Of a stretch of 64,000 nucleotides of DNA, positions 5,173-51,723 are shown piece after piece. A program made the translations under genes and the position numbers. Source of the DNA: a virus; IMG/VR virus record IMGVR_UViG_3300028558_000018, positions 32,001 to 96,000 of that record. One strand, written 5' to 3'. A model generated the notes under the pieces. The model made no database searches, had not been told where the DNA came from, and worked only from the letters and a program-made list of their open reading frames with translations. How positions within the stretch are numbered: the first letter of the stretch is position 1; each line of letters begins with the position of its first letter.

Positions 5173-5949
5173 CTACTCTTTAATTAACTCTGGAATTGGC
5201 TTCCCAAATCTTGCGAAATATTGAGGATTAAACACTAATTTGTTATTAGTTTCATCCCATTTATAACTACATAGACTCCCTCCCCATCTGCCCCGCTGAT
5301 ATTCCACCTTGCTTTTGGTTTTTTCGCAAGAAATCCAAGTTTTATGGACTATCCAACTTATATTAGGAGGAATAATCTTACTAGGAAAACTCTCGAAATC
5401 TTTAATATCCCGCGTAATAATCCCATGATAAACCACTTCATTATCGTGGCGAAAATTATTCAACCTATAGCCGTTATATTGAACTCTAAAGGCACGGGGC
5501 GGTTGAAAGGGAAGTTTTAGATAGGTAGAAGAATCGAACAAATAATTCTTATAGCTAAATTTATACCATGCTGAAAATTTATCTTCTTCAATGAACTTTG
5601 TAATATTTTGTAAGTCGTTGATTTGGAACAATTCATCGCCGTCGATTAAAAAAATCAATTCACATTTGTCATCCAATAATTTTCTTAAAGCTAATGTTCT
5701 TGCTTCGGCTTCACTAATATATTGCGGTTCGCGAATTAAATAATCTAAATTTTGAGTAGCTAAATAATCCCCCGTAGAATCATCAACATTATATTTCGTC
5801 TCTTTATATTCTTTGAAACAAACATTGATTCCAGCTATTACCCATTCGTGGCCGGAAAGTTTTTGTTCTCGGGCGAGAATTAATGGGCGAATAGAATCTT
5901 TAACGTATTCTTCGCAGTTGAATGCACAATAAATAATTCCGATTCTCAT
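5173..5949 (-). CDS. GT-A fold (GT2-like) glycosyltransferase
   Basis: N-terminal IIYCAFNCEEY strand; EAEART; LIDGDE DxD motif. Confidence 0.7.
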   Translation of the reverse strand: MRIGIIYCAFNCEEYVKDSIRPLILAREQKLSGHEWVIAGINVCFKEYKETKYNVDDSTGDYLATQNLDYLIREPQYISEAEARTLALRKLLDDKCELIFLIDGDELFQINDLQNITKFIEEDKFSAWYKFSYKNYLFDSSTYLKLPFQPPRAFRVQYNGYRLNNFRHDNEVVYHGIITRDIKDFESFPSKIIPPNISWIVHKTWISCEKTKSKVEYQRGRWGGSLCSYKWDETNNKLVFNPQYFARFGKPIPELIKE

Positions 5950-6320
5950 ACTGGATATTCCTTTGTTTGATTTTCTTTATTTTTAGCGAATAACCCATGA
6001 TTCTTAATCATCGACTTTAACATAGTTTGTATTTCTGGATGAAATGGATTCATAAATCTATCTTCTCCAACGTCATAACAAAATAATTTTCTTCCACCGC
6101 TAGGTTTATTATGAAATTTTTCTGGCACATATTGAGCGAAATCTTTTGTCATCACAACAATATAATCTGCCCAACCATAAAGCATCTCACGAGTTTCTTG
6201 AGAATTAGATTCCCACCCACATGCAATAACATCATGTCGTTCCTCGCAATTATAATGCAAAAGATATTTTAATGCGACACTTCTTACGTGCCCGCCACGA
6301 CAAAGGGTTAAAATTTTCAT
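5946..6320 (-). CDS. Low-molecular-weight phosphotyrosine phosphatase-like protein
   Basis: N-terminal P-loop LCRGGHVRS (C-x5-R-S); WADYIVVM. Confidence 0.7.
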   Translation of the reverse strand: MKILTLCRGGHVRSVALKYLLHYNCEERHDVIACGWESNSQETREMLYGWADYIVVMTKDFAQYVPEKFHNKPSGGRKLFCYDVGEDRFMNPFHPEIQTMLKSMIKNHGLFAKNKENQTKEYPV

Positions 6321-6323
6321 AAT

Positions 6324-6542
6324 TTATTTGACTTTAACCAATTTAATTTTTCCAATTTTCGTCTCGGTTAGTAACTCAGTTTCACCCTCGTTAAATTTAA
6401 AATTTCCATCTTTATCTACGACATAATAGGTATATTCTCCGGTTTCATCATTAGCCTCTAAACAGAAACTTATTTTATCTCCTGTAGATAAGTCTATAAC
6501 GTTATATTTGTAATCATCTATATCACCTACTTTAATATGCAT
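6324..6542 (-). CDS. Hypothetical protein, 72 aa
   Basis: Tightly packed in the operon. Confidence 0.6.
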   Translation of the reverse strand: MHIKVGDIDDYKYNVIDLSTGDKISFCLEANDETGEYTYYVVDKDGNFKFNEGETELLTETKIGKIKLVKVK

Positions 6543-7380
6543 AAATCTCCTTGATTAAACTCTCAATAGTCGGCACTCCATCATAGCCCGCGCCGCGCCA
6601 AAATTGTTCATTAGAAGACTTAAATACCGTAGAAATAGTTGAATCTTCCAGTCCTACAATTTTCCGTTTGACATTAATATTTTTGCCGCTATAAAGTTTC
6701 GCCAATGAAAGCAAATGCCCCTTGGAAATATCATCAGCGGGCACAATATGGAAAATATTGCTTAATTGAACTAATTTATCAAATTCGCCTTTGAGAATAA
6801 TCCCGCAAATAATTTTACTCAGCGCAATATTTGTAACCACATTACAAAAATGAGTGCAATATCCCGTGGCTTCTTCGTTTTGCTCACTAAACCATTTTAA
6901 CAATCCCCCATTACGCCCGACGAATGAACAGCGTAAATTGATAACATTTGGAGTGAGAACCTCACCTAACGATTTAGTTTGCCCATAAATAGAACTTGCA
7001 TTTTTTTCGTTAAACTCTCCTTTTGGTAACTCACTAAAATTCTTCGTAGCGAAAACTCCATTCGTAGAAATATGAATTATTTTGGCATTTTTACAATTCC
7101 GCGCTAATTGAATGGGAAAGAGCGAGTTTACCAATAGGCTATTTTCTGGATTATCTTCACCTTTAACGACAATTGTGTTAATAATATAATCATAATCTTT
7201 AGCGAAAAATGGCGCGTCCTTCGTTGCGTCAAAATTATAACAGGCGTAAGTTCCGTTAATATTGTCATCACATTGGCGGCGTGCAACCCCTAGTTGAATA
7301 TTCGGGGCGGAAGATAATAATTTGATTAATTCCGCGCCCAATAGTCCGTTACCGAAAACTAATACTTTTATTTTACTCAT
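6532..7380 (-). CDS. NDP-4-keto-6-deoxysugar reductase (RmlD-like extended SDR)
   Basis: GNGLLG Rossmann motif, IHISTNGVF, YGQTK catalytic YxxxK, LRCSFVG. Confidence 0.8.
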   Translation of the reverse strand: MSKIKVLVFGNGLLGAELIKLLSSAPNIQLGVARRQCDDNINGTYACYNFDATKDAPFFAKDYDYIINTIVVKGEDNPENSLLVNSLFPIQLARNCKNAKIIHISTNGVFATKNFSELPKGEFNEKNASSIYGQTKSLGEVLTPNVINLRCSFVGRNGGLLKWFSEQNEEATGYCTHFCNVVTNIALSKIICGIILKGEFDKLVQLSNIFHIVPADDISKGHLLSLAKLYSGKNINVKRKIVGLEDSTISTVFKSSNEQFWRGAGYDGVPTIESLIKEIYAY

Positions 7381-7835
7381 TTTAATAAATTTGGATTTTC
7401 GTAAATATTTCCAATAATCTCTATCGCGTTTGATTTCGGGCGACTTAATTGCACCGTATCATACCCTTCTTTGTATAAATCTAAATTGTAAGTTATGGTA
7501 TTTTGATAAGATGATTTTTCTATCATTCCATAGTGAGACATTTTTTGATTGAAATAAACATAGTATATTTTTCCCTTTCTTGTCTTCGCCCCGCTATCTT
7601 TTGTCGCTAAAACTATATCACCCTCATAAATATCTTTTCCGTGTTTATCTTTCAAACTGGTGGATTGCATAATTGGCGTATTATCTCCATAGATTGTATT
7701 AGCATCACTCATGCACGCCGAATCATTTTTATTCATCCCGTCGCAATAAAAAGAACCAAGATAACCCGCCATTATCTTATATTCCATTTGATATCCTGTC
7801 CATGCGCGGAATTTAATAGGTCTATTCATAATCAA
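7377..7835 (-). CDS. YopX family protein (copy 1)
   Basis: IKFRAW...MQST.LKDK.GKDIYEGDIV...EIIGNIYENPNLL. Confidence 0.85.
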   Translation of the reverse strand: MIMNRPIKFRAWTGYQMEYKIMAGYLGSFYCDGMNKNDSACMSDANTIYGDNTPIMQSTSLKDKHGKDIYEGDIVLATKDSGAKTRKGKIYYVYFNQKMSHYGMIEKSSYQNTITYNLDLYKEGYDTVQLSRPKSNAIEIIGNIYENPNLLK

Positions 7836-9031
7836 AACGGTTTAATAAAATTTAATCCTTTTAGATGCTTATTCTTTTCTTTAATCCCCTTTATGTAATT
7901 CCACGCAGTAACAATTACATCTTTATTCTCCTCGCTCTCCAAAATTTCCTTGCCGACAATCGGAATTCCAACTTGAGGAATAAATTTCCCCTGACGTAGC
8001 GGAGATTCATCTACCACGTAGCTAAATCTAATATCACTCATATTGTTAAACCAAGTATTGGCCCTTCCGCTTGCTCCATAGGCGATATTATTTGGATTTT
8101 TCAACATTTTTTGCGCCACGGGATTTGCATAACGTGCTTTATAATGAACGTTGAAATATTTGAATTTTAGTTTATCAAATTCAATATCTTTAGTGTTGTC
8201 GTAAATGAATTTCTTTTTAGAAAAAAACACCCTTAGACTACCTCCGTGATTCTTAATTTTTAGATTAAAAATCGGGAAAAGCCCTACTAAAGAACAGACC
8301 TTCACAAGCGAATGCAGCGAATAATTAATTTTATGCTCATGATAAATAAAATCCCATGCTTTATCGTCAAAAATCGCGTCCAAATCGCCTACTTCGACAC
8401 AAAATAGACCATTTGGTTTCAACGCGGCGAAAATTCCTTCAAAAACAGGCTTTAAATCGCTAATATGAGCGAGGCAATTCGCCGCGAAAAGATGGTCAAC
8501 AGTGGATTCCAAGTTATTTTGCTTAACAAAATCAAGATTAAATCCCTCGTTAAACAATTTAACATGGCTGAATTTGGGATTTTTACTGGCGCGTTTTGCC
8601 ACATCAGAGGGGTCAACTGCGATAATATTCCAATTTTTGGGCAAATGTTGAATTAGTGGAAACGAATTCGCTCCAATTTCTAAGAACGTAAACCCATCTT
8701 TATCTCCATTTGCTTGAATTAATCTATCTGCGTATTCCTTAAAATGAGCAACTAAAGCGGGAATTGAACTTGAATCATAATTATACTTCTTAAAAAGAAC
8801 TTCATCGGAAATATTCTCTCTAACTTGCACCGCGCCGCAATTTTGACATTGAACCAAAGTGAGGGGAAACAGCTCTGCGTTTTTGGCCTCCTCTAAAGAC
8901 TCCGCGAAGTGTCCGGCAAGGGGCACGGGTTTTTCAAACTCAAAAACCGGAATGAGGCTTTCGCCGTGGCAGCAACGACATTGAGTAATATCTGTATAAT
9001 TTTTGCTAATAGGCATAATTAACGAAACCAA
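7832..9031 (-). CDS. SAM-dependent NDP-sugar C-methyltransferase
   Basis: Zn-binding CRCC...CQNC, LEIGAN, NCLAHI, YHEH, HGGSLR, YGASGRA, VDESPLRQGK, AWNY as in sugar C3-methyltransferases. Confidence 0.8.
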   Translation of the reverse strand: MVSLIMPISKNYTDITQCRCCHGESLIPVFEFEKPVPLAGHFAESLEEAKNAELFPLTLVQCQNCGAVQVRENISDEVLFKKYNYDSSSIPALVAHFKEYADRLIQANGDKDGFTFLEIGANSFPLIQHLPKNWNIIAVDPSDVAKRASKNPKFSHVKLFNEGFNLDFVKQNNLESTVDHLFAANCLAHISDLKPVFEGIFAALKPNGLFCVEVGDLDAIFDDKAWDFIYHEHKINYSLHSLVKVCSLVGLFPIFNLKIKNHGGSLRVFFSKKKFIYDNTKDIEFDKLKFKYFNVHYKARYANPVAQKMLKNPNNIAYGASGRANTWFNNMSDIRFSYVVDESPLRQGKFIPQVGIPIVGKEILESEENKDVIVTAWNYIKGIKEKNKHLKGLNFIKPF

Positions 9032-9990
9032 TCGTTTTTGATGAGAAATTGTCTAAATTCTTCTTTAGAAACTACTACATTTCTAGAAGAAAACTCATTA
9101 TCTTTAAATTGTGGCGGATTATTTTTAACTGATTGTCCAATAGTATAATATGTCGAATAAGGTTTATTAATATCGGCGACAAAATTCGTGCGCGGCAATT
9201 CTTCCCTGCTAATCATTACTTCATGAAGTTTCTCGTTGGGGCGAGGTTGGCCCAGTTCATACTTTAATCCAAATTCTTCCGCGTAAAGCTCAAAAGAATC
9301 CTTGATTAGATAAGAAGGCAAATTTGGAATAATAACTTCATTTTTATGATGAAGACTTGTTTGAATTAAACCTACCGCATCTTCTACTGTGATAAAGAAC
9401 CTAGTCATTTCTTCTGAAAATAACTTGAGTGTGTAATTATTTCTAATAGCATCCCACATTAATTTCAATTGTGAGCCAGTTGAGCCAGCCACGTTTCCGT
9501 ATCTACATGAAGAAAAAGCAGTCAAATAACTAAGTTTTTTATCGTTTTCTTTGTAAACAAAGGAGGTTTCCGCCGCCGCTTTTAATTGGCCATAGAGGGT
9601 GCTCGGCGCACAAGATTTATCTGACGAGACGAAACACGAAGCTAAAAAGAAACATTCCTTAGATAGTTTTTTAGAGTTAATCGCCCCTTGATAAATTGTT
9701 CGCCCCGCTTCTTCCGCCGCGTCATCACAAGCTTCGATTTGTTTGAGTGAGGCGCAGAATATTCCAATATTACAATTATATTCAATCGCAACCTGCTTCA
9801 TCCTTTCGTAATTATAAACATCTCCAATTTCACAAATAATATTAGGAAATTGTTTTTTCAAAAAATAATGTTTGGCTTCGTCGCGAGAGTAAACAACTAT
9901 CTGATTATCTTGATATAGTTTTTTAATAATCGCTCGCCCAAGATAGCCCGCGCCGCCAGTAATGAAAATTCGTTTATTGCTTAAAATCAT
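9019..9990 (-). CDS. UDP-GlcNAc 4,6-dehydratase-like (PseB/FnlA/CapD family)
   Basis: ITGGAGYLG, YSRDEAK, SSDK, YGQLK, RYGNVAGSTGS, MTRFFI, RPNEKLHE. Confidence 0.85.
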   Translation of the reverse strand: MILSNKRIFITGGAGYLGRAIIKKLYQDNQIVVYSRDEAKHYFLKKQFPNIICEIGDVYNYERMKQVAIEYNCNIGIFCASLKQIEACDDAAEEAGRTIYQGAINSKKLSKECFFLASCFVSSDKSCAPSTLYGQLKAAAETSFVYKENDKKLSYLTAFSSCRYGNVAGSTGSQLKLMWDAIRNNYTLKLFSEEMTRFFITVEDAVGLIQTSLHHKNEVIIPNLPSYLIKDSFELYAEEFGLKYELGQPRPNEKLHEVMISREELPRTNFVADINKPYSTYYTIGQSVKNNPPQFKDNEFSSRNVVVSKEEFRQFLIKNDWFR

Positions 9991-9996
9991 TATTTT

Positions 9997-10416
9997 TTAA
10001 AGTTTTGTATTTTCGAATATATTCCCGATAATTTCCATGCTTTTTACCGAATTAAAAGTAAAATCTAGTGGAATACTTGGCTCCTCGCTAACCAACGTAA
10101 ATCTAAATTCCGGCGCGGCATATTCTATTTTGCAAATTTGTTCGCCCGCTCTGCCCATGTCACATTTGAGAATATCACCCTCATAAACTTCCTTTTTGTT
10201 CTTATCTTTCAGACCAATAAATTGTTGATAAATAATTCGCCCTCCGAAGGCTGGCCCCAGCGGGTTGTTAGGATAAAAAAATGTCATATCCTCCATATCA
10301 TCTTGGTCTGGACAATCCCAACAGTCAGAGTCCAACATATATTCATCACATGGAACTTGGTCTAGCCATTTTTTGTTTTTATTATCCCATGCGCGAAATT
10401 TAATTTCTCTATTCAT
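9997..10416 (-). CDS. YopX family protein (copy 2)
   Basis: MNREIKFRAWD...QFIGLKDKNKKEVYEGDIL...EIIGNIFEN. Confidence 0.85.
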   Translation of the reverse strand: MNREIKFRAWDNKNKKWLDQVPCDEYMLDSDCWDCPDQDDMEDMTFFYPNNPLGPAFGGRIIYQQFIGLKDKNKKEVYEGDILKCDMGRAGEQICKIEYAAPEFRFTLVSEEPSIPLDFTFNSVKSMEIIGNIFENTKL

Positions 10417-10446
10417 AATAAAAAATATTCTTATGTTTGCCCACTC

Positions 10447-11256
10447 TTAGTCAATATTAATCGGAGAAAACGCATTTATTTCTCGATTAAAATCTAACCA
10501 GTGATAGCCCGTGGAATCAATAAAATGTTGGATACCATTGTTACTTCTGTAACTTGCTGATTGTCTTTTGTTTGTTAAACTTATCGCATGGTAAACACAT
10601 AAGTCCTTGAGAGTCACAAACTTATAATCATTCTTTAGTTGCTTTAGTCTCCAAGGGAAAAAGTTATCCAAACTATACCCACTTGACCACCTCATATCGA
10701 AGTTATTTGAATATCCGCCCACCGCAAGATAGTCTTTAAAATTAGTCACAATAGGATGATTATAGCCCACGATATTATTATTTAATTTCCATTTTCCTTG
10801 GGCGACCCCTTCGTTAAACTTAATTTCCGTATTGGGATCGGTATAATCGCCCAAATTTTCTACAATGACTAATGGATTGCCCGTTCCGTAGGGTTCTAAA
10901 AGAAATAAACTTTGCGTAATATTTTTGTTTCGCGCCGCATTGTTAATTACTTGAGCGTCCCACCCTTTAGGAAGCAACATATCGTTATTACAATTAACGT
11001 GTAATTCACTATCAATTAGAGGATTCGCATAATCTACCGACATTGGGCCGATATTATCCTCGCGAAGAATAAAATCAAATTTATCGCTATATTGGAGTTT
11101 GAATTCGTTAACTAGAATCTCGTCTTCTTTGGAATATTCATTAACGACAACAATCAGGCGCGAATCTTCTGAAAAAGATGCTATTGCGTTGGGAATGAAT
11201 GTTTTAAGCAAATCTGTGCCATGCCATGACGGGGCGACGAGAGTGAGACTATTCAT
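10447..11256 (-). CDS. GT2-like glycosyltransferase
   Basis: LTLVAPSW, DNIG, CNNDM (DxD-like), VGGY, VYH. Confidence 0.7.
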   Translation of the reverse strand: MNSLTLVAPSWHGTDLLKTFIPNAIASFSEDSRLIVVVNEYSKEDEILVNEFKLQYSDKFDFILREDNIGPMSVDYANPLIDSELHVNCNNDMLLPKGWDAQVINNAARNKNITQSLFLLEPYGTGNPLVIVENLGDYTDPNTEIKFNEGVAQGKWKLNNNIVGYNHPIVTNFKDYLAVGGYSNNFDMRWSSGYSLDNFFPWRLKQLKNDYKFVTLKDLCVYHAISLTNKRQSASYRSNNGIQHFIDSTGYHWLDFNREINAFSPINID

Positions 11257-11711
11257 TTGGTTAGTAATTCTGGATTTTCAAAAATATTACCAATTACCTC
11301 TACTAGAATTTTGGTTCCTAGAACGCCCACATTAAAATCTAGAGGCATTTTTTGGCAGTCATCATATAAAATGTTGGAAAAGGCAAAATATGAATTAAAA
11401 TAAATAACACTAGACCGGTCCTCATGCCCTCGGTCATCTTTATCTTCTATGGATCGGATATAATATTTTATGATATCGCCTTCGTAAATATCTTTCCCGT
11501 TAACATCTTTTGACCCTGTAAATTGTTGGACCTTAATATCTTCTATTTTATAATCCCCCTGAGTAAGCCACAAATTATCTTCTTTATCTTTAGATATAAA
11601 CCCAACCAGCCCATTATTAGTGTCCGCGCCCTCTATCACCCCAATAATCCAATCTTGGATAAATTTATTTCTTTTACGATTCCACACTCTAAATTTAATT
11701 TCTCTGTTCAT
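11253..11711 (-). CDS. YopX family protein (copy 3)
   Basis: MNREIKFRVW...QFTGSKDVNGKDIYEGDII...EVIGNIFENPELL. Confidence 0.85.
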   Translation of the reverse strand: MNREIKFRVWNRKRNKFIQDWIIGVIEGADTNNGLVGFISKDKEDNLWLTQGDYKIEDIKVQQFTGSKDVNGKDIYEGDIIKYYIRSIEDKDDRGHEDRSSVIYFNSYFAFSNILYDDCQKMPLDFNVGVLGTKILVEVIGNIFENPELLTK

Positions 11712-11717
11712 AATATT

Positions 11718-12521
11718 TTAAAGTTTTCTTCCTAGCGGAAGCCAAGGTTTACGAATTTCTTCCGCGCTAATCGGTAAATTAACAGGTCTACCATCTTCGA
11801 TTTCCCACATTTTGGACCAAAAATTCTTATTAATTTCAGCGCGCCGATCTAAATCTTTATATCCATGATGCACGATAAACGGCGATTGACTGTCTTGAAT
11901 CTTCCACCAATCCATAAGGGCCATGTTGTTATTGGGAACAATTTGAACAGATTTTACTAGCCGATTATTCTCATCTAACAACTCGCAACTGTCAGAAGCC
12001 CCATCACCATGAATTTTATGCGTTCCATCGGGACGTTTCGCGAAATCAACAACGCCGCGTTTTAATCCACGCTTATGCAAATACCATTTATAGGTAATAT
12101 CACTAAAATGCTCGTCGTCTTTGTAAAGATTAATTGACGGCAGCATGATACAGGAAAAACTTGATGATTCTAATAGCAACTGCAAATAATATTCCCACGC
12201 GGCGCGATCTGTAATACCTAATCTCTCGTCTCCGTCAAGTTGAAGAAGAATGTTACCACTACATTTTTGTAGTGCGGCGTCTTTTAGCGCACCGTCAAAA
12301 GTTGGCTTATCAGGAGTAAGTTCTGTAAGTAAAATTTCCACATTTGGGAACTTTTTCGCGGCAGATTTTAACAATTTTGCGCTATTATCAGAATCTTTAA
12401 TAGTTGAGATGATAACTTCATCGGCGAAAGCCGCAACGTGAGCGATAAAATCTTTATAGTCGAATTTATTAGATTTTACGTTAAATAACGAAGAATAGAT
12501 GCTTAATTTTACTTGTGGCAT
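11718..12521 (-). CDS. GT2-like glycosyltransferase
   Basis: FADEVII, DSDNS, LQLDGDER DxD motif, IVHHGY. Confidence 0.75.
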   Translation of the reverse strand: MPQVKLSIYSSLFNVKSNKFDYKDFIAHVAAFADEVIISTIKDSDNSAKLLKSAAKKFPNVEILLTELTPDKPTFDGALKDAALQKCSGNILLQLDGDERLGITDRAAWEYYLQLLLESSSFSCIMLPSINLYKDDEHFSDITYKWYLHKRGLKRGVVDFAKRPDGTHKIHGDGASDSCELLDENNRLVKSVQIVPNNNMALMDWWKIQDSQSPFIVHHGYKDLDRRAEINKNFWSKMWEIEDGRPVNLPISAEEIRKPWLPLGRKL

Positions 12522-14251: not shown

Positions 14252-14276
14252 CAAAATCTAATCATTTACATATCAT
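14248..14276 (+). promoter_or_regulatory. Sigma70-like promoter TTGACA-N17-TATCAT
   Basis: Near-consensus -35/-10 overlapping the HNH stop; no sizeable + strand ORF follows. Confidence 0.65.
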
Positions 14277-14980: not shown

Positions 14981-15012
14981 TTGACAAAAATGATATAAGC
15001 GATTAGTATCTT
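14981..15012 (+). promoter_or_regulatory. Promoter TTGACA-N17-TAGTATCTT, leaderless
   Basis: Same motif at 19938 and 26423; ATG at 15017. Confidence 0.7.
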
Positions 15013-15866: not shown

Positions 15867-16964
15867 ATGAATAAACCACTTACATTTGATACCGCCGTAA
15901 ATAATTTGAGCTTCGGCTTCGTCGGATTCAATATTATTAAAGAATTATATCGCCGCGAATATCCCGTAAATATTCTCGCAAAGGGCGGGTCGCTTGATTT
16001 TTCTAGCTTCGATAAAGCCTCCGATGAATTAAAAAATAAAATTCGTTCAAATGCCCAAAATTTCTTTTCTTCGTTTAACCGTAATAATCCAACCCTTCAG
16101 ACGTGGCACATAAACGGCAGCGAGTCCCATGTAGGCGCGAAAAATAACCTCCTAACGTTTTTTGAGCTAGACCAACTCACCCCCAGCGAAACCAATATTC
16201 TCAATAATCATCACCAAATTTTCGTCACAAATGAAGAGGCTCGCCAAACTTTTCTCGATTATGGAGTAGAACGCCCCGTTTATAATATTCCCCTTGGGTT
16301 CGATAAAGACCAATTTTTCGCCACAGGTAAAAAATATCTAAGTAACGATACCACCGTTTGGGCTATTAATGGTAAATTTGAAAAACGGAAGAAAACATTG
16401 GAAACGGCGCGGCTCTGGTTAAAGAAATATGGTAACAATCGTAATCATCGGCTGCATCTCCATGTTTATAACCCCTTTTTTAGCAAAGAACAGAACCAAC
16501 AGCTTTTGGCTCAAATCTTTGAAAACAAGGAATACTGGAATGTTTCGTCCTTTCACTATACAACTACCCTCAGTGAACTTAACGATGCCTATAACTGTGC
16601 AAATATCGTCATCGATATGAGTGGTGGCGAAGGTTGGTCGCTACCAAGTTTTCACATGACAGGACTAGGCAAACATGCAATTGTTCTTAACTCTACTGGA
16701 ATTAAAGAATGGGCGATAGAAGATAATGCCGTGCTTGTTCAACCTAACGGAAAAGAAGATGCCGAAGATAAGGTTTTCTTTCACAAGGGGCAGTTATTTA
16801 ATCAGGGTAATTTTTACACCTTTGATTCTAATGAATTCAGCGATAAACTTGATATCGTTCTCAAAAGAAGTCTTGCTTCGAGAGTTAATAGCGCGGGCCT
16901 AGAGATTCAAAATAAATTCACTTGGCAAAATACTGTTGATCAATTACTTGCACATATTTCTTAA
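15867..16964 (+). CDS. GT4 (GT-B) glycosyltransferase
   Basis: SFG N-terminus, TFFE, IPLGFD, GKFEKRK, SGGEGWSLP. Confidence 0.8.
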   Translation: MNKPLTFDTAVNNLSFGFVGFNIIKELYRREYPVNILAKGGSLDFSSFDKASDELKNKIRSNAQNFFSSFNRNNPTLQTWHINGSESHVGAKNNLLTFFELDQLTPSETNILNNHHQIFVTNEEARQTFLDYGVERPVYNIPLGFDKDQFFATGKKYLSNDTTVWAINGKFEKRKKTLETARLWLKKYGNNRNHRLHLHVYNPFFSKEQNQQLLAQIFENKEYWNVSSFHYTTTLSELNDAYNCANIVIDMSGGEGWSLPSFHMTGLGKHAIVLNSTGIKEWAIEDNAVLVQPNGKEDAEDKVFFHKGQLFNQGNFYTFDSNEFSDKLDIVLKRSLASRVNSAGLEIQNKFTWQNTVDQLLAHIS

Positions 16965-17023: not shown

Positions 17024-17050
17024 TTCACTTTTTTATCAATTTAGGGTAAT
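17024..17050 (+). promoter_or_regulatory. Phage late-type promoter TTCAC-N15-GGGTAAT
   Basis: Consensus copy; followed by CAAGGAATAAGG. Confidence 0.75.
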
Positions 17051-17464: not shown

Positions 17465-19072
17465 ATGCCCTATTCTCCCATTAGAATTCAACAACTCGAC
17501 TTACCTAATTTATCTGGGTATATCGGTTCTGTGCTTGCGGGTTCTCAGGCTGTGTTGATTTATGGCGACCAAACCGGAATTTCAGGCCGCAAAGTCTTCC
17601 TCGGCACAATTGATTTTAGTGGCAATACTTCAATTTCAGGCGGAATTAACTTTAGTCGCACAAATTATAATCTCAACCCATTTGGTCAATTTGAAGTAGG
17701 CGCGCTATCAAATATCAGCGCCGATCCTTATTTGGCCCAACTTTATGATTTAACCAACGGAGCATATATCGCCCTAGATTGGAACTCGCGCTCTTTATCC
17801 GGCCAATGGGCGTCTAATGTGGCACCCTCTTGGACAGGACATTTGGTTAATTTGGGGTTTCTTCAAACTGGAAATTTCGGCGCGAATCCTTATGTGGTAA
17901 ATACCGTTAGCGGGCAAACTATTAGCGGCGTGAAATTATTTCTAGCCCCTGCTTCTTTTCAATCTGGACTAAATTCGGATAACTTAAGTATTTTTAGTCC
18001 TATTTATCAAGACGGAGATACTATTTTTGAAATAAATTCCGGCAATAATATTTCTTGGAGTAAAGGACAACTGCAAAACAACGCTTCTGTTTATTTAAAT
18101 TGGACTGGACAACAATTAAGCGGGCAAGATTGGAAGAGTGACAATTCAAATCCGACAATTCCCTTTCATATCATTAATTATGATTATTTAACGGGCGGCG
18201 CGATTATTCCTATTTTGGGTCTGCCCACTCTATCCGCCAATCAAACATTTTTAGGTCAAAATACCTTCCGTAATATTCAACTAATCGGCGGCACGGGAAT
18301 TGATTTTAGCGGCAATCTTTATTTAACGCAATCGGGAAGTTTCTCCTCTGGATTCAATGGGCCGAATGTTTTTGACCCAAATACCGCGACTTTTAAAGAT
18401 TTTAGCAACGTATCTTCATTAAATTATTCCGCGAGAACCTTATCCGGCCAATGGAAAACAAATAATTCACCGTCTCAATCTGGAGATTTGATTAATTATA
18501 GTTATTTAACATCTAATTATGCTAATTTAACAGGAAATCAGAATTTTTATGGTTCAAATAACTTTTCGGGACTAACGACTTTTAGCGGCATTAATATTTC
18601 CGGGGGAAGCGGGATTCAACTTAGCGGCAATTTAAATATTTCACAATCTGGAACAATTAATTCTGGCGCGTCAACTATCTACGACCCAAATAGTGCTCAA
18701 TTTAATGATTTTAGCGGCAATAATTCTCTAAATTACGATACTCGCACGCTATCTGGGAACTGGAATACTTCTGGGAATCTTTATTTCCCTATCGGTTCTG
18801 GAGTAGGATATCCCACTGGAAACAACTCTTTAATTGGCACGGGAAGATTGATAACGGGCGGCGCGACAATTACTACTTCCGCGATTAACGCCAACGGGTT
18901 TATTTTTCTACAGCGTTCTTTAATTGTTAATTCTACTGGAGTAGGACAACTTGCCCCGTCAGGAATCGTTGCAAACAGCTACTTCTCAGTTCGCTCATTA
19001 ACAACTTCTGGGACTATTAATGTAAACGACAGCGGAAGTTTTTATTGGGAAATAAGTAATCCATCGAATTAA
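17465..19072 (+). CDS. Repeat-containing virion fibre-like protein
   Basis: About 4 repeats ending L(D/N)(W/Y)..R.LSG.W plus QT.SG.K.F fibre motifs; G/S/N-rich. Confidence 0.6.
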   Translation: MPYSPIRIQQLDLPNLSGYIGSVLAGSQAVLIYGDQTGISGRKVFLGTIDFSGNTSISGGINFSRTNYNLNPFGQFEVGALSNISADPYLAQLYDLTNGAYIALDWNSRSLSGQWASNVAPSWTGHLVNLGFLQTGNFGANPYVVNTVSGQTISGVKLFLAPASFQSGLNSDNLSIFSPIYQDGDTIFEINSGNNISWSKGQLQNNASVYLNWTGQQLSGQDWKSDNSNPTIPFHIINYDYLTGGAIIPILGLPTLSANQTFLGQNTFRNIQLIGGTGIDFSGNLYLTQSGSFSSGFNGPNVFDPNTATFKDFSNVSSLNYSARTLSGQWKTNNSPSQSGDLINYSYLTSNYANLTGNQNFYGSNNFSGLTTFSGINISGGSGIQLSGNLNISQSGTINSGASTIYDPNSAQFNDFSGNNSLNYDTRTLSGNWNTSGNLYFPIGSGVGYPTGNNSLIGTGRLITGGATITTSAINANGFIFLQRSLIVNSTGVGQLAPSGIVANSYFSVRSLTTSGTINVNDSGSFYWEISNPSN

Positions 19073-19900: not shown

Positions 19901-19939
19901 AAGTCCCGCGAGGTAATTCTCTCGGGGCTTTTTATTTTT
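19901..19939 (+). terminator. Intrinsic terminator
   Basis: aagtcccg...cggggctt hairpin followed by T-tract. Confidence 0.75.
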
Positions 19940-19969
19940 GACATTTAAATAGAAAATCATTAGTATCTT
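19938..19969 (+). promoter_or_regulatory. Promoter TTGACA-N17-TAGTATCTT, leaderless
   Basis: ATG at 19974. Confidence 0.7.
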
Positions 19970-44307: not shown

Positions 44308-45435
44308 TTAAGGATTTACCCCAGAGATATAGAATCCGTGGAGTGTATCGCTAGAACCACCGATAGGAGCACTAAACTGCATCGTGACAGTCTGGGCGGG
44401 GCCGACGCTTTCGGAGAATTCCGCTGAATCAAGTTGCGCGCCAACGAGTGTGTAAATCAGAATAGAATTACCAGTAGTAGAGTCACATTTCGGAAGGGTG
44501 GCCGAAACCTGTAGATTATAAGTGGAATTATCACAGAATAAAGAAGTAACAGAACCGTTGTTCAACTGATTGACAAGAGCATCAATCGAAAACGTAACGT
44601 TAATGGGGAAATTAATATTACGAGCATAGGCTTGTTTAGAACCTAAGCGTTGGAGAACTTCGAGAGAAATCGGGGCATTAATGGTGAACGATTGAATATT
44701 CGCGGCCCCGACACCAGTAACAGTTGCGCCAAGAGTCGTAGAAACTTGAGATAAATCAACAAATAAATCACCTTGGCGAATTGCAATAGGCTGATCAACC
44801 GTCCCAGAGGTAGCCAGAGGAATATTATAAGTATAACCAGTAATTTGCGCGCTAGTATTGTGATCAACGGCAGGAATAGCGTTGCCAGTTCCGCCCACAT
44901 CATAAGTGGCATTAAGAGCCTCCCAAGTGGTAGAAGCGGTCATGAAACCACCAACGGCAGCAGAAACGGAATAAGAAGAAAGGGCGGCATTACCGAAACC
45001 GCGAACGTCAACTACAGAATTACCAGAAAGGGTCGCTAAATCTGTGCCCTCGGCAACCGTAGGAATGAAGAAATTCTTTTCGGCTTGGGTGCGGTCGATG
45101 ATATGTTGAAGGGCGGAACCGTGGCCAGAGCCGGAGATATTAAGGCCGACCATTTTTTCCGCACTTCCGTCAGTTGCATAATAAGAATAGCTTAAGTTAA
45201 CGGTGGGCGATTGGGTCACAAGACGAGCAATGGGAGCGAGTTGGCCAAATTGCGTAATATTTGTGCGGTTGGCTTGAAATCCATCGCGAGTAGTTGTTAC
45301 GCGAGAAATCTGTTGGAGTAAGTTCGTCCCAGAGTTGCCAAGGCTAAAATGTGCGCCAGAAGCGTTCGCGCCACTTGGCCCCACCATGACCCCATTGATC
45401 TGATAAATTCTGCGGCTAAAAACAGGAGTAGACAT
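44308..45435 (-). CDS. Major tail (tube) protein
   Basis: Synteny, high-expression codon bias, own promoter and terminator, beta-rich. Confidence 0.7.
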   Translation of the reverse strand: MSTPVFSRRIYQINGVMVGPSGANASGAHFSLGNSGTNLLQQISRVTTTRDGFQANRTNITQFGQLAPIARLVTQSPTVNLSYSYYATDGSAEKMVGLNISGSGHGSALQHIIDRTQAEKNFFIPTVAEGTDLATLSGNSVVDVRGFGNAALSSYSVSAAVGGFMTASTTWEALNATYDVGGTGNAIPAVDHNTSAQITGYTYNIPLATSGTVDQPIAIRQGDLFVDLSQVSTTLGATVTGVGAANIQSFTINAPISLEVLQRLGSKQAYARNINFPINVTFSIDALVNQLNNGSVTSLFCDNSTYNLQVSATLPKCDSTTGNSILIYTLVGAQLDSAEFSESVGPAQTVTMQFSAPIGGSSDTLHGFYISGVNP

Positions 45436-45532: not shown

Positions 45533-46570
45533 TTATTGGCTCCTACGAGGATAGCGTTGCATGTTTATATCAAAATTTACAAACGCCACAAAGTAATTAT
45601 TAACATTATTGGTCTTTTCACTAACTTTACTCACATGGACTTTCTTCACCCAAGCCAAATTGTTCGCATAGCCAAATTGGGCTACATAATTATTATAATT
45701 GTAAACCCCGCTTAAATTATCCTTAATATCTCCATAAAAGTTCAATGGCATATAATCCAAGGGAATTAATGGAAACATTAAATTATTAGTATCTCTTAAC
45801 AGAGAAAGAACTCCATCTATTTGATATTGGTCTTTACAAATCAACATCACATTCGCGCTCATTTTGGTCAAATCTTGCCCGCCGAAAGTAAATGGCTCAT
45901 TATCTCCTTCTGAAAGCGATATAACTGAACACGGCGCGGCGTAAATATATGGAGATAAACCAGTTGCGGGCAAACCCACATTATTATCGTTGCCCATAAT
46001 TGATTCAAATACTATTTGTTGGTTAGACTCCGAAGTAATATAAGTGTTAAATTCCTTTTTCGCATAATTGCCACTAAATGCAGGAATTGTTTGAGAAGTT
46101 AAATCCAAATTAGTCGCATTGTAGAAATAATAAAACCCTTGCGATATTCCCGTAGTTGAAACTAATTGCCCGCCAGAATAAACATAAGTTGCGTTACAAT
46201 CTTGAACATAAGCGGGGGTTGTTCCACTATAAGAACCCGTAATATAATTATAAAGTTCCCCTGAAACGGCCAAATTAGAGAAAATTCTACCATTTTGATA
46301 ATCAAACATCAGCCCGCTAGTTCCTCTTCCAATAAATTGCTCGGTATTAATGGGGGCAACGCCACTTAAAACATTCGCGCCGGGAATACTAGAGTCGTAA
46401 ACTAATTGCTTATAAGGAGATGCGTAAGTTACATAACCGGGCAAACTTGCATCAGTTGAGGGATAAAAAATAGTGGTTTCATTAGAAAACGCCTCCCCCG
46501 TGGATAACAAATAATGGTCAAACCACAAATAAAATGAGCCAAGAAGAGTATGGGAAAAGGTTTGTTTCAC
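45533..46570 (-). CDS. Tail terminator-like protein with insertion domain
   Basis: Directly upstream of tube gene; GTG start; promoter TTCGC-N15-GTGTAAT at 46577-46603. Confidence 0.5.
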   Translation of the reverse strand: MKQTFSHTLLGSFYLWFDHYLLSTGEAFSNETTIFYPSTDASLPGYVTYASPYKQLVYDSSIPGANVLSGVAPINTEQFIGRGTSGLMFDYQNGRIFSNLAVSGELYNYITGSYSGTTPAYVQDCNATYVYSGGQLVSTTGISQGFYYFYNATNLDLTSQTIPAFSGNYAKKEFNTYITSESNQQIVFESIMGNDNNVGLPATGLSPYIYAAPCSVISLSEGDNEPFTFGGQDLTKMSANVMLICKDQYQIDGVLSLLRDTNNLMFPLIPLDYMPLNFYGDIKDNLSGVYNYNNYVAQFGYANNLAWVKKVHVSKVSEKTNNVNNYFVAFVNFDINMQRYPRRSQ

Positions 46571-49844: not shown

Positions 49845-49911
49845 AGCAATATACTATACGCGATTTGGAGACTCATGTGAACTATCGTGACTACTATTTT
49901 AAGAGAAAAAT

Positions 49912-49943
49912 AAAAAACCCCGAAGATTTCTCCTCGGGGTTTT
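49912..49943 (-). terminator. Intrinsic terminator after MCP
   Basis: CCCCGA/TCGGGG stem plus T6. Confidence 0.8.
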
Positions 49944-49965
49944 GATTTACTTACCTAAGTTGTTC

Positions 49966-51087
49966 TTAGATAATCAGACCTGTAAGCTCTCTAGCGTCAC
50001 TACAGACAAAACCTTCATTAACAGAGGCATAGAAGCCGATTTTCTTCTGACGTTCCGCGAAGGAATTATCGGGAGTAACAACAACTTCGGAGTTGGTGTC
50101 GCTATCGGTAGCAACGGGACGGAACAGACCTTCAATGTTAGCGTTAAAAGCAATGCTAATTTGCTCGGTAGCAGGATTGAAGGCGGTCGTGCCCGCGCCA
50201 GTAGCATCAGGGAACGCGGTAGAACCAGCAAGCGCGCCGAACAGAGTGTTGTATTTGTAACCAACACCAAGCTCTTGCATCTGCATGATGTTCACTCCGT
50301 AGAAGCTAGGAACGCCAGCGGATTTGTAAACCTCTTGACGAAGGGCGTCATGAGCAGGGATATTCGTAACGGTGCCGATGGTGTTCATGGGCTGGAAGGC
50401 GAAACCACGCAGCTTGCGGACAATCTCAGGAGAAACCGCGAGGTCCGTAACGCTATCAGCAGACCAAGTAGGAGTGCCGCCAGCGAATGAACTCAGAATA
50501 CGGGAGCTAAGATTGAACAGAGCAAGGAAGTCATCAAGAACAATCGTGCCAGCGGTGCCAGAACGAATAACGTGTTTCTTAGCGACACCGTTGACAGGGG
50601 TTGAAGCCTGAGCAAGAGCGGCAAGAAGAACAGTCGCGGCGTTGAATTCTTTCTTAACGAGGAATTCCTGAGCCATTTTGTTCAACGAACGAGCGACAAT
50701 ATCAATACGACCCTGAGCGGCGAATTTCTTGAGGAAAGCAACCGCGCTGTAGAGGTCATAAGTGGTGAATTTCAACTCTTGGAAACCATGCACTTCGTTA
50801 GTAGGCAGACCGCCGGGGGTTGACTGTGACCAAACGCGGACATAATCAGTATCGCGAATGTCATAGAAAAGGTCAAGCGGGATGGAGGGCATACCATACT
50901 CGGGGAAAGGCAGCGGGTTGAACATGTTAGAAACAACCGGAGCCTGATTAATCACCTGTTGGATGATCGGGCCGACTGAAGCGGCGAAAGCCTGTTGAGC
51001 TTGACCCGCTTTGATCGGGTCTTTAGAAGCCATTGCTTTGATAAGCTCGATTTGCTCAACATTATTTTCTAGAACGATTTTATTCAT
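49966..51087 (-). CDS. Major capsid protein
   Basis: 373 aa, strongest codon bias in window, follows protease and decoration genes, strong terminator; HK97-like secondary-structure pattern. Confidence 0.8.
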   Translation of the reverse strand: MNKIVLENNVEQIELIKAMASKDPIKAGQAQQAFAASVGPIIQQVINQAPVVSNMFNPLPFPEYGMPSIPLDLFYDIRDTDYVRVWSQSTPGGLPTNEVHGFQELKFTTYDLYSAVAFLKKFAAQGRIDIVARSLNKMAQEFLVKKEFNAATVLLAALAQASTPVNGVAKKHVIRSGTAGTIVLDDFLALFNLSSRILSSFAGGTPTWSADSVTDLAVSPEIVRKLRGFAFQPMNTIGTVTNIPAHDALRQEVYKSAGVPSFYGVNIMQMQELGVGYKYNTLFGALAGSTAFPDATGAGTTAFNPATEQISIAFNANIEGLFRPVATDSDTNSEVVVTPDNSFAERQKKIGFYASVNEGFVCSDARELTGLII

Positions 51088-51129
51088 AATAATTATTTTT
51101 TAAAGGTTTTGTTAATAGTAAAAATCGTA

Positions 51130-51723
51130 TTAGAGTTCCAGTTTGAAGAAAGCGGAACCGCCAAGTTTGGAACCTGAGCTAGAGATAAACTTACCAACGA
51201 TTTGATTCGTGGCGTAACCAGTAGCAGCACCAGTGACTTGCGTAGGAGCGAGGGCGCGGATAATACCGTTGCCACCGTTATCAATTACGCCGACATAACC
51301 GGGGAGAGGAATGCCAACGTAAGCAGCGGAGGCGAGTTGGAGAATACCGCGAGTAAGGACCGGAACGGTTTGGCCGGAAACGATACAATTAAGTTTCTCA
51401 ATAAGCTGCGGGTGGAAAATCAGCTTTTCGCCGTTTTCGTCATACTCGCGAGTGTCCTTAAGAGTAATACCGAGAGCGGCATACTTGGTGTCGCCAGAGG
51501 CGGAAGGGGTAACGCGGGCAGTAGTGGCATAACGAACGCTATAAACATTCGGGTAAGTATTGCCGGGGGCGATATTGGTGTAACCGTCGCCAGAATCAGG
51601 CGCGAAGTTAACAATAGAAACAAGTTCGCCAGCTTGACCAGTATTAGAGTGGGCAAAAAGGGAGACTACATCGGTTTCGTTATATGAACGATAAGGAAAC
51701 AGTTTGTTGATAATAGTAGGCAT
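51130..51723 (-). CDS. Capsid decoration/cement protein
   Basis: Between scaffold and MCP; LGITL, GQTVPVLTRG, VGKF beta-tulip-like motifs; high-expression codons. Confidence 0.65.
   Translation of the reverse strand: MPTIINKLFPYRSYNETDVVSLFAHSNTGQAGELVSIVNFAPDSGDGYTNIAPGNTYPNVYSVRYATTARVTPSASGDTKYAALGITLKDTREYDENGEKLIFHPQLIEKLNCIVSGQTVPVLTRGILQLASAAYVGIPLPGYVGVIDNGGNGIIRALAPTQVTGAATGYATNQIVGKFISSSGSKLGGSAFFKLEL

What the first reader, a model, noticed from the sequence alone, without database searches (positions are those of the whole stretch)
5173..51723. Candidate virion glycan-coat system: phage sugar pathway and ~7 GTs plus a Ser/Thr-Gly motif concentrated in outer virion proteins
Seen: the window encodes a dehydratase, C-methyltransferase, reductase and about 7 glycosyltransferases. 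Seen: outer structural proteins are rich in x-[S/T]-G. By hand count, the 359-aa protein at 27486 has about 31 of ~46 Gly preceded by S/T but only ~9 followed by S/T. The same bias shows in 17465, 30880, 32953, 34565, 45533, 47683, the tube (~12 sites) and the decoration protein, while portal (~5 in 652 aa) and TerL show little of it. Known: Ser-Gly is an O-glycosylation acceptor in proteoglycans, and some mycobacteriophages glycosylate virions with their own GTs. Inference: [S/T]-G is the acceptor sequon for phage-encoded O-glycosylation that coats tail and capsid.
Basis: partly seen in the sequence, partly recalled or inferred. Interest (0 to 1): 0.85.

Follow-up and report, generated by a model that had tools for sequence, protein, structure and literature searches.

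The report
Ser/Thr-Gly loop tag on phage tail fibres
The tail-tip and fibre proteins of this uncultured 144-kb aquatic phage and its large clade carry two to three times too many Ser-Gly and Thr-Gly pairs in their surface loops; these may be attachment sites for sugars added by the phage's own enzymes, but no chemistry shows that, and the gene context of those enzymes points partly elsewhere.

Summary
The [S/T]-G excess is real. Three show z 3-5 (32953, 34565, 45533). The tube candidate is only mildly enriched. The capsid protein, decoration protein, portal and TerL are not.

The codons are diverse, so the signal is at protein level. It is kept in about 145 homologues. It is absent from T4, lambda and Bacillus phage Slash tail proteins. 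The extended motif is hydrophobic-[S/T]-G-x-hydrophobic. It sits in loops or strand ends of Ig-like beta-sandwiches. S and T interchange freely, while N and D are nearly excluded. In the two proteins after the tape measure, the motif arose by point substitution at polar loop positions in one subclade only.

Only three glycosyltransferase units are supported (a fourth weakly), not seven. The conserved ones have host-type early promoters. In most relatives they lie inside the DNA-replication operon, yet they converge on the fibre genes. The sugar pathway is accessory.

Glycosylation is plausible (about 0.4) but unproven. A purely structural motif is nearly as likely. This scan has noted similar Ser-Gly patterns in other aquatic phages.

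The parts
27486..28565 (-). 359-aa distal tail or fibre protein ('fib359'), [ST]G-rich, made of tandem Ig-like beta-sandwiches
   Evidence: z 7.2. AF2 model pLDDT 92.9, all-beta. 28 of 31 [ST]G glycines lie in loops or strand ends. The 127 family representatives have median z 6.5.
30880..32901 (-). 673-aa fibre-like protein ('fib673'), the most [ST]G-rich
   Evidence: 48 sites, z 9.0. Its 18 homologues all have z 5-11. 25 of the 48 sites are shared by at least half of the homologues.
17465..19072 (+). 535-aa fibre-like [ST]G-rich protein with internal repeats, lying between the two GT operons
   Evidence: z 8.3. A late-promoter-like site lies at 17024-17049. Weak K1-lyase_C hit. G009 has a 530-aa biased protein at the same position.
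32953..34563 (-). 536-aa tail-tip protein, second gene after the tape measure (hub or Tal position by synteny), moderately [ST]G-rich
   Evidence: z 4.9 here, 2.9 in G001, 3.8 in G002, about 0 in six other orthologues. The extra sites align to polar dipeptides in the unbiased orthologues.
34565..36166 (-). 533-aa tail-tip protein, first gene after the tape measure (Dit position by synteny), moderately [ST]G-rich
   Evidence: z 3.4-3.8 here, 2.7 in G001, 5.6 in G002, about 0 in the others. The sites were gained by substitution, not insertion.
45533..46570 (-). 345-aa tail protein next to the tube candidate, mildly [ST]G-rich
   Evidence: z 3.3. Orthologues range from +0.7 to +2.9.
63428..64000 (-). 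C-terminal part of a 595-aa fibre-like [ST]G-rich protein that runs off the window (to 65215 in window numbering)
   Evidence: 38 sites vs 17 expected, z 5.8. It has repeated NPSGY and QTGNYY units.
28562..30874 (-). 770-aa tail protein between the two fibre proteins, not [ST]G-rich (an internal negative control)
   Evidence: z -1.4 here, -2.1 to +2.3 in 8 orthologues.
44308..45435 (-). 375-aa tube candidate (assigned by position), only mildly enriched
   Evidence: 12 sites vs 8.1 expected, z 1.6. Orthologues are mostly +1.6 to +2.9; two are +0.2 and -3.1.
15867..16964 (+). GT4-like glycosyltransferase of conserved 'triad A' (p194, GT4-like, p129)
   Evidence: Profile of 8 orthologues matches PDB GT group 1 (5i45, 1e-7) and chlorovirus B736L (3oy2, 2e-5). 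Present in all 8 large relatives.
19974..21884 (+). 636-aa GT4-type glycosyltransferase with a conserved CxxC...CxxC ribbon insert and a DUF4214 module; first gene of 'triad B'
   Evidence: Pfam Glycos_transf_1 5e-8 and DUF4214. Conserved Cys4 in the alignment. Virus-only family. More than 514 loci in IMG/VR.
21881..23041 (+). 386-aa protein whose first ~175 residues are a GT9 (heptosyltransferase-type) nucleotide-sugar lobe, followed by an unknown alpha/beta domain
   Evidence: Pfam Glyco_transf_9 6e-9. Profile vs RfaF C-lobe 1.7e-7. Best fold matches are WaaC and WaaF, but the model is weak (pLDDT 66). It follows 19974 in 79 of 80 loci.
23038..23787 (+). 249-aa conserved protein ending triad B; function unknown, with weak leads to single-strand-annealing proteins
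   Evidence: Present in 77 of 80 loci. No Pfam or PDB match. Atlas leads to Sak, Rad52 and ExoX score 0.87-0.88 only.
26458..27489 (+). 343-aa possible GT-A (GT2-like) enzyme, accessory
   Evidence: Only a sub-threshold Glyco_tranf_2_3 hit, E 0.004. No PDB match. Found only in G001 and L082.
5173..12521 (-). Accessory sugar island: Polysacc_synt_2 4,6-dehydratase (9019-9990), sugar C-methyltransferase (7832-9031), RmlD-like reductase (6532-7380), four unassigned proteins and three YopX paralogues
   Evidence: Pfam. Only 5173, 6532 and 11718 have clear homologues in any relative (G001; 11718 also in G005 and G007). The C-methyltransferase has only 23%-identity hits (G004, G008), and the dehydratase has none.
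24315..26426 (+). 703-aa protein with 30% Ser+Thr, depleted in [ST]G
   Evidence: 4 sites vs 15.9 expected, z -3.6. Sequence shown.
14981..15009 (+). Host-type promoter TTGACA-N17-TAGTAT in front of triad A. Identical hexamers also lie at 19938-19966 (before 19974) and 26423-26451 (before 26458)
   Evidence: Four matches to TTGACA-N17-TAKYAT in the window vs 0.06 expected, all on the + strand at 14.2-26.5 kb.

Best explanation
The distal tail proteins of this phage clade carry a sequence-specific surface tag, hydrophobic-[Ser/Thr]-Gly-x-hydrophobic. It sits in the loops and strand ends of their Ig-like beta-sandwich domains.

Shown: the tag is real and asymmetric. It is selected for the hydroxyl group (S and T interchange, N and D are excluded). 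It is conserved across about 145 homologues. Sequence-unrelated proteins of the same tail share it. In one subclade it spread by point substitution onto the two tail-tip proteins that follow the tape measure.

Inferred: the tag is read by a trans-acting factor. The most likely reader is one of the phage's own soluble glycosyltransferases: the GT4-like enzyme of triad A, or the GT4/GT9-type pair of triad B. These are made early from host-type promoters and would persist into the late phase. They would O-glycosylate the hydroxyl at many sites per fibre and so coat the tail tip and fibres, but not the capsid. The donor sugar is unknown. The dehydratase, C-methyltransferase and reductase island could at most supply a strain-specific sugar, because only G001, of the fetched relatives, carries parts of it.
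For: - [ST]G is 2.4-2.9 times expectation in the biased proteins of all 10 genomes, while G[ST] is 0.7-1.1, NG 0.5-0.9 and DG 0-1.1.
- The codons are diverse.
- At conserved sites S and T mix (18 of 35 and 17 of 21 columns). N accounts for 10 and D for 2 of 506 residues, although N is as common as T.
- S/T before G is kept as S/T in 51-57% of homologues, against 29-35% for other S/T.
- The biased proteins share no BLAST similarity with each other.
- In the 536- and 533-aa tail-tip proteins the sites of this phage align to NK, DA, KS, KT and similar dipeptides in unbiased orthologues of the same length.
- T4, lambda and Slash tail proteins show no bias.
- All 8 large relatives keep both GT triads.
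- In 46 of 73 GT loci a biased gene lies downstream on the opposite strand; the nearest one is a median of 2 bp from the triad.
- Precedents exist. Mycobacteriophages glycosylate virions with their own enzymes (PMC12363180). The GT9-type enzyme TibC heptosylates Ser-313 in a Ser-Gly-Gly context of TibA (PMC4358343).
Against: - There is no chemical evidence.
- The GT genes carry host-type TTGACA-N17-TAGTAT promoters, not the late promoter of the structural genes.
- In at least 45-56 of 80 relatives triad B follows primase, DnaB and PHP on the same strand; in the one locus annotated in full (L091) also ThyX, an RNase T exonuclease and Pol III alpha. It ends with a protein that has weak leads to annealing proteins.
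- GT4 and GT9 are the classical LPS-core families.
- The capsid and decoration proteins lack the tag, unlike the mycobacteriophage precedent.
- The 30% Ser/Thr protein 24315 is depleted in the tag.
- Non-virion proteins show no avoidance of [ST]G, at 0.93-1.22 times expectation.
- Some phages with triad B have an unbiased giant protein next to it.
- Half of the sites are positionally conserved and flanked by hydrophobic residues, as structural residues would be.
- The bias and the GTs are both clade-wide, so the association rests on a single evolutionary event.
Confidence: 0.4

Rival explanations
1. The motif is purely structural. [ST]-G is this clade's preferred way to build tight turns, bulges and strand ends in its fibre beta-sandwiches: Gly takes the left-handed conformation and Ser/Thr caps the backbone. 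The glycosyltransferases do something unrelated. They may remodel the host's LPS core early in infection, for example to exclude superinfection or to stop progeny sticking to debris. Less likely, they modify DNA.
For: - 28 of 31 sites lie in loops or within one residue of a strand end, and 16 of 27 inter-strand loops carry one.
- Gly at these sites is more conserved than other Gly (0.52 vs 0.33 and 0.49 vs 0.37), and about half of the sites are positionally conserved.
- The flanks are hydrophobic, and Pro and Gly are excluded after the Gly.
- The GTs are early genes inside the replication operon of most relatives.
- The best sequence and fold matches of 21881 are the LPS heptosyltransferases WaaC and WaaF.
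- Non-virion proteins show no avoidance of the motif.
Against: - Asn and Asp, the usual turn formers and interchangeable with Ser/Thr in capping motifs, are nearly excluded although Asn is abundant.
- Beta-rich tail proteins of T4, lambda and Slash do without the motif.
- Sequence-unrelated proteins of one tail share it.
- Conserved tail-tip scaffolds acquired it by substitution at polar loop positions in one subclade only. That needs a directional pressure which plain geometry does not supply.
- Neither a thymidylate-synthase-type hydroxymethylase nor a TET enzyme was found for DNA glycosylation. The TET search had no positive control.
Confidence: 0.37
2. The hydroxyl before Gly is an acceptor or ligand for something other than a sugar added by the phage. 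Options are phosphorylation or another host-made modification, or direct hydrogen bonding of a Ser/Thr/Gly-rich loop surface to the host's surface polysaccharide during adsorption.
For: The selection is hydroxyl-specific and confined to the receptor-facing end of the tail. The motif spreads over tail-tip loops in a subclade, as expected for a surface that contacts the host.
Against: A binding surface would select composition rather than the order S/T-then-G, yet G[ST] is not enriched. No kinase or other modifying enzyme was seen in the window. Many sites are conserved over 25-30% identity, whereas receptor-binding surfaces usually turn over fast.
Confidence: 0.1
3. The motif is a chemical-stability adaptation. 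The fibres replace deamidation-prone Asn-Gly and isomerisation-prone Asp-Gly turns with Ser/Thr-Gly so that long-lived particles keep intact fibres.
For: NG (0.5-0.9) and DG (0-1.1) are below expectation in the biased proteins, against 1.3-1.6 and 1.3 in lambda and T4.
Against: In this phage the NG and DG deficit is about 33 sites, while the [ST]G excess is about 110 (my arithmetic). The equally exposed capsid, decoration and 770-aa tail proteins show no such shift.
Confidence: 0.08

Closest known systems
Virion O-glycosylation of mycobacteriophages Che8, Corndog and Myrna by phage-encoded glycosyltransferases (Freeman et al. 2023, as summarised in PMC12363180)
   Same: A tailed phage encodes its own soluble glycosyltransferases. 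Outward-facing virion proteins are the proposed acceptors. The GT genes lie outside the structural operon.
   Different: There, glycosylation was shown chemically and falls on the capsid and tail-tube subunits. Here nothing is shown chemically. The capsid lacks the motif, the tube has it only mildly, and the candidate acceptors are tail-tip and fibre proteins with 20-50 dipeptide sites each. Homology of the enzymes to Che8 gp110 or Corndog gp38 was not tested.
Bacterial autotransporter heptosyltransferases (TibC, AAH) acting on TibA and AIDA-I (PMC4358343)
   Same: A GT9-type enzyme hyperglycosylates many serines on a beta-rich surface protein encoded next to it. One mapped site is Ser-313 in a Ser-Gly-Gly context. 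A Cys4 metal finger takes part in substrate recognition. Here there is a GT9-type lobe, a Cys4 ribbon and adjacent beta-rich proteins full of [ST]G.
   Different: TibC modifies Ser but not Thr, whereas here Thr is as frequent and as conserved as Ser. The substrate fold is a beta-helix there and a beta-sandwich here. TibC did not appear among the sequence or fold matches. Only the C-lobe of a GT9 is detectable, and the Cys4 ribbon sits in the neighbouring GT4 protein.
LPS inner-core glycosyltransferases WaaC and WaaF (GT9) and WaaG (GT4)
   Same: These are the best sequence and fold matches of 21881 and the family-level matches of 19974 and 15867. Early expression would fit remodelling of the host envelope.
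   Different: The phage proteins are a virus-only family with extra modules (Zn ribbon, DUF4214, an unknown C-terminal domain). 21881 lacks a detectable N-lobe. No lipid or membrane association is evident.
Ser-Gly xylosylation sequon of eukaryotic proteoglycans
   Same: Ser followed by Gly serves as an O-glycosylation acceptor.
   Different: That sequon is described as flanked by acidic residues and uses Ser only (my own knowledge). Here acidic residues are depleted around the site, hydrophobic residues flank it, and Thr is used equally.

Membership tests
Phage virion O-glycosylation (mycobacteriophage type) | Phage-encoded glycosyltransferases present | tested here: met
   15867, 19974 and 21881 have GT4 or GT9 HMM, profile and fold support.
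Phage virion O-glycosylation (mycobacteriophage type) | Glycan mass demonstrated on virion proteins | not testable with these tools
   The phage is uncultured and no proteomic data are at hand.
Phage virion O-glycosylation (mycobacteriophage type) | Capsid and tail-tube subunits are the acceptors | tested here: not met
   The candidate motif is absent from the capsid candidate (z -0.4; orthologues -0.7 to -0.1) and only mild in the tube candidate (z 1.6).
Phage virion O-glycosylation (mycobacteriophage type) | Enzymes homologous to Che8 gp110 or Corndog gp38 | not tested
   Those sequences were not fetched.
BAHT (TibC/AAH) protein O-heptosyltransferases | Complete GT9-like GT-B catalytic domain with an N-terminal beta-barrel | tested here: inconclusive
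   Only about 100 residues of a GT9 C-lobe are detected in 21881. A GT9 N-lobe at the end of 19974 was not detected in 10 orthologues. TibC is not among the matches.
BAHT (TibC/AAH) protein O-heptosyltransferases | Cys4 iron finger inserted in the catalytic domain | tested here: inconclusive
   A conserved CxxC...CxxC insert exists, but in the GT4 domain of 19974 and not in the GT9-like protein.
BAHT (TibC/AAH) protein O-heptosyltransferases | Serine-only acceptors on a beta-helical autotransporter | tested here: not met
   Thr makes up 46% of the sites and interchanges with Ser. The modelled substrate fold is a beta-sandwich.
BAHT (TibC/AAH) protein O-heptosyltransferases | Substrate gene adjacent to the enzyme gene | tested here: met
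   Where a biased gene follows triad B (46 of 73 loci), the nearest one lies a median of 2 bp from its end, on the opposite strand.
LPS-core glycosyltransferases (GT9 WaaC/WaaF, GT4 WaaG) | Sequence and fold similarity over both lobes of one chain | tested here: not met
   21881 matches only the C-lobe (RfaF positions 239-336). The rest of the protein is a different domain.
LPS-core glycosyltransferases (GT9 WaaC/WaaF, GT4 WaaG) | Acts on lipid A-Kdo or heptose acceptors | not testable with these tools
   This needs biochemistry, and the host is unknown.
Phage DNA glycosylation (T4 alpha/beta-GT type) | Pathway making a hydroxymethylated base (TS-like hydroxymethylase or TET/JBP) | tested here: inconclusive
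   PF00303 is absent from the 95%-complete genome, with working controls. PF12851 is also absent, but that search rang in no control genome.
Phage DNA glycosylation (T4 alpha/beta-GT type) | Early expression with the replication genes | tested here: met
   The GT genes have host-type promoters and sit in the replication operon of relatives.
Proteoglycan Ser-Gly xylosylation sequon | Acidic residues flanking Ser-Gly, Ser only | tested here: not met
   D, E and K are depleted at positions -1 and +3, hydrophobic residues are enriched there, and Thr is used equally.

The most novel reading that the evidence does not exclude
A very large, uncultured clade of aquatic phages (more than 500 contigs carry the GT pair) uses a minimal dipeptide sequon, [Ser/Thr]-Gly in beta-sandwich loops. 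Through it, a virus-only GT4/GT9-type enzyme set hyperglycosylates tail fibres and the tail tip at tens of sites per protein. Subclades would extend the sugar coat simply by mutating loop residues to [ST]G. This would be the first sequon-directed virion glycosylation system in phages, and it would be readable directly from sequence.
Probability: 0.3. Interest if true: 0.9.

Novelty: new variant of a known kind. Interest (0 to 1): 0.62.

Why it matters
If the tag marks sugar attachment, virion glycosylation would be common rather than a mycobacteriophage curiosity. It would occur in abundant freshwater and marine phages, and its sites could be predicted from sequence. That would affect how fibre structures are modelled, how host range and particle stability are understood, and how phage glycosyltransferase genes are annotated; they are often assumed to act on DNA or on the host surface. 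If the tag is only structural, it is still a strong, clade-specific design rule for fibre beta-sandwiches: hydroxyl before Gly, Asn and Asp avoided. That rule has no explanation yet. The point-substitution spread onto conserved tail-tip scaffolds gives a concrete handle for experiments.

Tried and rejected
- DNA-level motif: rejected, because at least 20 different codon pairs encode the dipeptide.
- Generic property of tail fibres: rejected. T4 gp34-37, lambda J, Stf, H, V and E, and the Slash tailspike and 1970-aa tail protein all have z of 2.3 or less.
- One inherited domain family: weakened. The biased proteins share no BLAST similarity, and sites were gained by substitution in conserved scaffolds.
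- Sequon avoidance in cytoplasmic proteins: not seen.
- PHROGs and Pfam on the structural proteins: almost nothing beyond TerL and an HNH endonuclease.
- Single-sequence searches of IMG/VR with fib673 and the capsid candidate, and tblastn of the phage collection with fib359: no hits.
- Fold search of fib359: only generic Ig-like arrays.
- Natural experiment with the one unbiased family member (P0036, z 0.3): its contig was found in neither IMG/VR nor the metagenome collection.
- The AF2 model of 21881 is weak (pLDDT 66).
- The Freeman 2023 paper is not held, so its acceptor details are quoted second-hand.

Full report
**Setting.** The window is bases 32001-96000 of a single 144,389-bp virus contig with 37% G+C, estimated 95% complete. 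It is very distant from cultured phages. The portal finds only Bacillus phage Slash, at 22% identity. PHROGs recognises little beyond TerL and an HNH endonuclease. Structural roles below are therefore assigned by gene order and size unless stated otherwise.

**The observation.** I translated 60 ORFs and compared [ST]G and G[ST] counts with 500 shuffles of each protein. I then repeated this for the whole genome.
- Strong excess: 17465 (z 8.3), 27486 (7.2), 30880 (9.0), and a 595-aa protein that starts at 63428 and runs off the window (5.8).
- Moderate excess: 32953 (4.9), 34565 (3.4), 45533 (3.3).
- Not individually significant: the tube candidate 44308 (1.6), 47683 (1.3) and the decoration candidate 51130 (2.0).
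- No excess: capsid candidate, portal, TerL and the 770-aa tail protein 28562, which lies between two biased genes.
- Depleted: the 703-aa protein 24315, with 30% Ser+Thr (z -3.6).
- At least 20 different codon pairs encode the dipeptide, so this is a protein-level signal.

**Generality.**
- All 18 homologues of the 673-aa protein (27-49% identity) keep the bias, z 5-11.
- An exhaustive search with the 359-aa protein found 127 representatives. Their median z is 6.5, and 55% of all their glycines follow S/T.
- Fourteen IMG/VR loci show a conserved module: tape measure, two ~540-aa proteins, a biased ~650-aa protein, an unbiased ~800-aa protein, then a biased protein of 370-1870 aa.
- In nine fully fetched relatives, 2-11 proteins each are biased.
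- Across orthologues the fibres are always biased. The two ~540-aa proteins are biased only in this phage, G001 and G002. The tube candidate and 45533 are mildly but repeatedly positive. The capsid is never biased.
- T4 gp34-37, gp48 and gp54, lambda J, Stf, H, V and E, and Slash tail proteins show nothing, z of 2.3 or less.

**Anatomy of the motif.**
- Over 4,899 sites the context is hydrophobic (V, I, A, F) at -1, S or T, G, then Y, Q or E, then hydrophobic (I, V, F). Charged residues are depleted on both sides, and Pro and Gly are excluded after the Gly.
- An AlphaFold2 model of the 359-aa protein is confident (pLDDT 92.9) and all-beta. Fold searches give only generic tandem Ig-like sandwiches of tail proteins and adhesins.
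- 28 of 31 [ST]G glycines lie in loops or within one residue of a strand end. 16 of 27 inter-strand loops carry one.
- About half of the sites are shared by at least half of the homologues, and the rest turn over.
- Where the Gly is kept, the preceding residue stays S/T in 77-87% of cases. S and T mix within columns. N (10 of 506) and D (2 of 506) are nearly excluded although N is as abundant as T.
- S/T before Gly is conserved more than other S/T, 51-57% against 29-35%.

**A lineage-specific spread.**
- The biased proteins have no detectable similarity to each other.
- In the 536- and 533-aa tail-tip proteins, orthologues have nearly the same length. Most [ST]G sites of this phage align to ungapped polar dipeptides (NK, DA, KS, KT, EV and the like) in the unbiased orthologues. 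G001 and G002 share different subsets of the sites.
- The motif therefore spread by point substitution at loop positions of a conserved scaffold, not by acquisition of a domain. This implies directional selection in that subclade.

**The enzymes.**
- Pfam confirms the dehydratase, the C-methyltransferase and the reductase. This island is accessory. Only 5173, 6532 and 11718 have clear homologues in any relative. The C-methyltransferase has only 23%-identity hits, and the dehydratase has none.
- Three glycosyltransferase units are supported:
  - 15867, GT4-like. Its profile hits PDB GT group 1 and chlorovirus B736L.
  - 19974, GT4-type with a conserved Cys4 ribbon and DUF4214. It belongs to a virus-only family.
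  - 21881, a GT9 C-lobe plus an unknown domain.
- 26458 has only a sub-threshold GT2 hint.
- Two gene triads are conserved in all eight large relatives:
  - Triad A: p194, GT4-like, p129.
  - Triad B: 19974, 21881, p249.

**Context of the enzymes.**
- Triad B occurs in more than 514 IMG/VR loci.
- In the 80 best loci it is contiguous (79 and 77 of 80). In 45-56 of them it has DnaB, primase, a PD-(D/E)XK nuclease and a PHP protein nearby; in the gene maps shown these lie upstream on the same strand. In the one locus annotated in full (L091) it also follows ThyX, an RNase T exonuclease and DNA polymerase III alpha.
- p249 has only weak leads, to single-strand-annealing proteins.
- In this window TTGACA-N17-TAGTAT promoters precede 15017, 19974 and 26458. 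There are 4 matches against 0.06 expected. A phage late-promoter-like site precedes 17069 and 17465.
- The enzymes therefore look like early genes.
- Yet triad B converges on the end of the fibre genes. In 46 of 73 loci a biased gene lies downstream, and the nearest one is a median of 2 bp away.
- Some loci instead have an unbiased giant protein of a different family at that position.
- No thymidylate-synthase-type hydroxymethylase is encoded. The TET search was uninformative.

**Weighing.**
- For a trans-acting reader such as a glycosyltransferase: the order-specific and hydroxyl-specific selection, its presence in unrelated proteins of one tail, its spread by substitution, its absence from classical fibres, and the universal presence and adjacency of virus-only GTs. 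There are also two precedents, in mycobacteriophages (PMC12363180) and in TibC acting on a Ser-Gly-Gly site (PMC4358343).
- Against: early timing, the replication-operon context, the LPS-core family resemblance, no tag on the capsid, no avoidance elsewhere, structural-looking conservation, and the fact that bias and GTs are both clade-wide and so amount to one evolutionary event.
- I put O-glycosylation at about 0.4, a purely structural motif with unrelated GTs at about 0.37, and other readings at the remainder.

**Earlier notes.** This scan's notes report similar Ser-Gly patterns next to GT genes in other aquatic phage genomes. I did not test those, and they do not count as evidence here.

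Noticed in passing
window 14248-14276, 14981-15009, 19938-19966, 26423-26451 (+): Four near-identical host-type promoters TTGACA-N17-TA(T/G)(C/T)AT lie on the + strand, against 0.06 expected. Three sit directly in front of the GT operons. They mark an early transcription class distinct from the TTCAC-N15 late promoters.
   Followed up: partly
window 19974-21884 (+), about residues 270-300 of the protein: A conserved CxxC...CxxC ribbon is inserted in the GT4 domain, with weak similarity to ribosomal protein eL43 zinc ribbons. It recalls the Cys4 finger that TibC uses to hold its protein substrate.
   Followed up: partly
L091:1-13919 and 79 other loci (L082-L161): In most relatives the GT4/GT9 pair and p249 close a replication operon: DnaB, ThyX, primase, PD-(D/E)XK nuclease, PHP, RNase T exonuclease and Pol III alpha. 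In this window the pair has moved next to a fibre-like gene.
   Followed up: yes
window 7377-7835, 9997-10416, 11253-11711 (-): Three YopX-family paralogues are interleaved with the sugar-pathway genes. A fourth copy lies elsewhere in the genome.
   Followed up: no
window 24315-26426 (+): A 703-aa protein with 30% Ser+Thr in long S/T/Y runs lies inside the GT region and is strongly depleted in [ST]G (z -3.6). It could be a different kind of glycan acceptor or a fibre.
   Followed up: no
window 48687-49844 (-): An HNH homing-type endonuclease gene (phrog_4645, 1e-20) is inserted within the head-tail structural module.
   Followed up: no
L098, L109, L132, L146, L157 versus L116, L117, L125 (genes convergent on p249): Two unrelated families of giant proteins (1800-2500 aa) occupy the position next to triad B. 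One is strongly [ST]G-biased (z 7-13). The other is unbiased (z -1.3 to 2.4).
   Followed up: partly
protein P0035 (5994 aa): A giant protein carries 28 copies of a module matching residues 106-182 of the 359-aa protein, with a moderate [ST]G bias (z 6.3). Its origin is unknown.
   Followed up: no
window 17465-19072 (+), residues 454-514: The C-terminus has a weak match to the K1 capsule lyase C-terminal domain (E 0.001, below the family cut-off). This hints at a tailspike-like or intramolecular-chaperone end.
   Followed up: no
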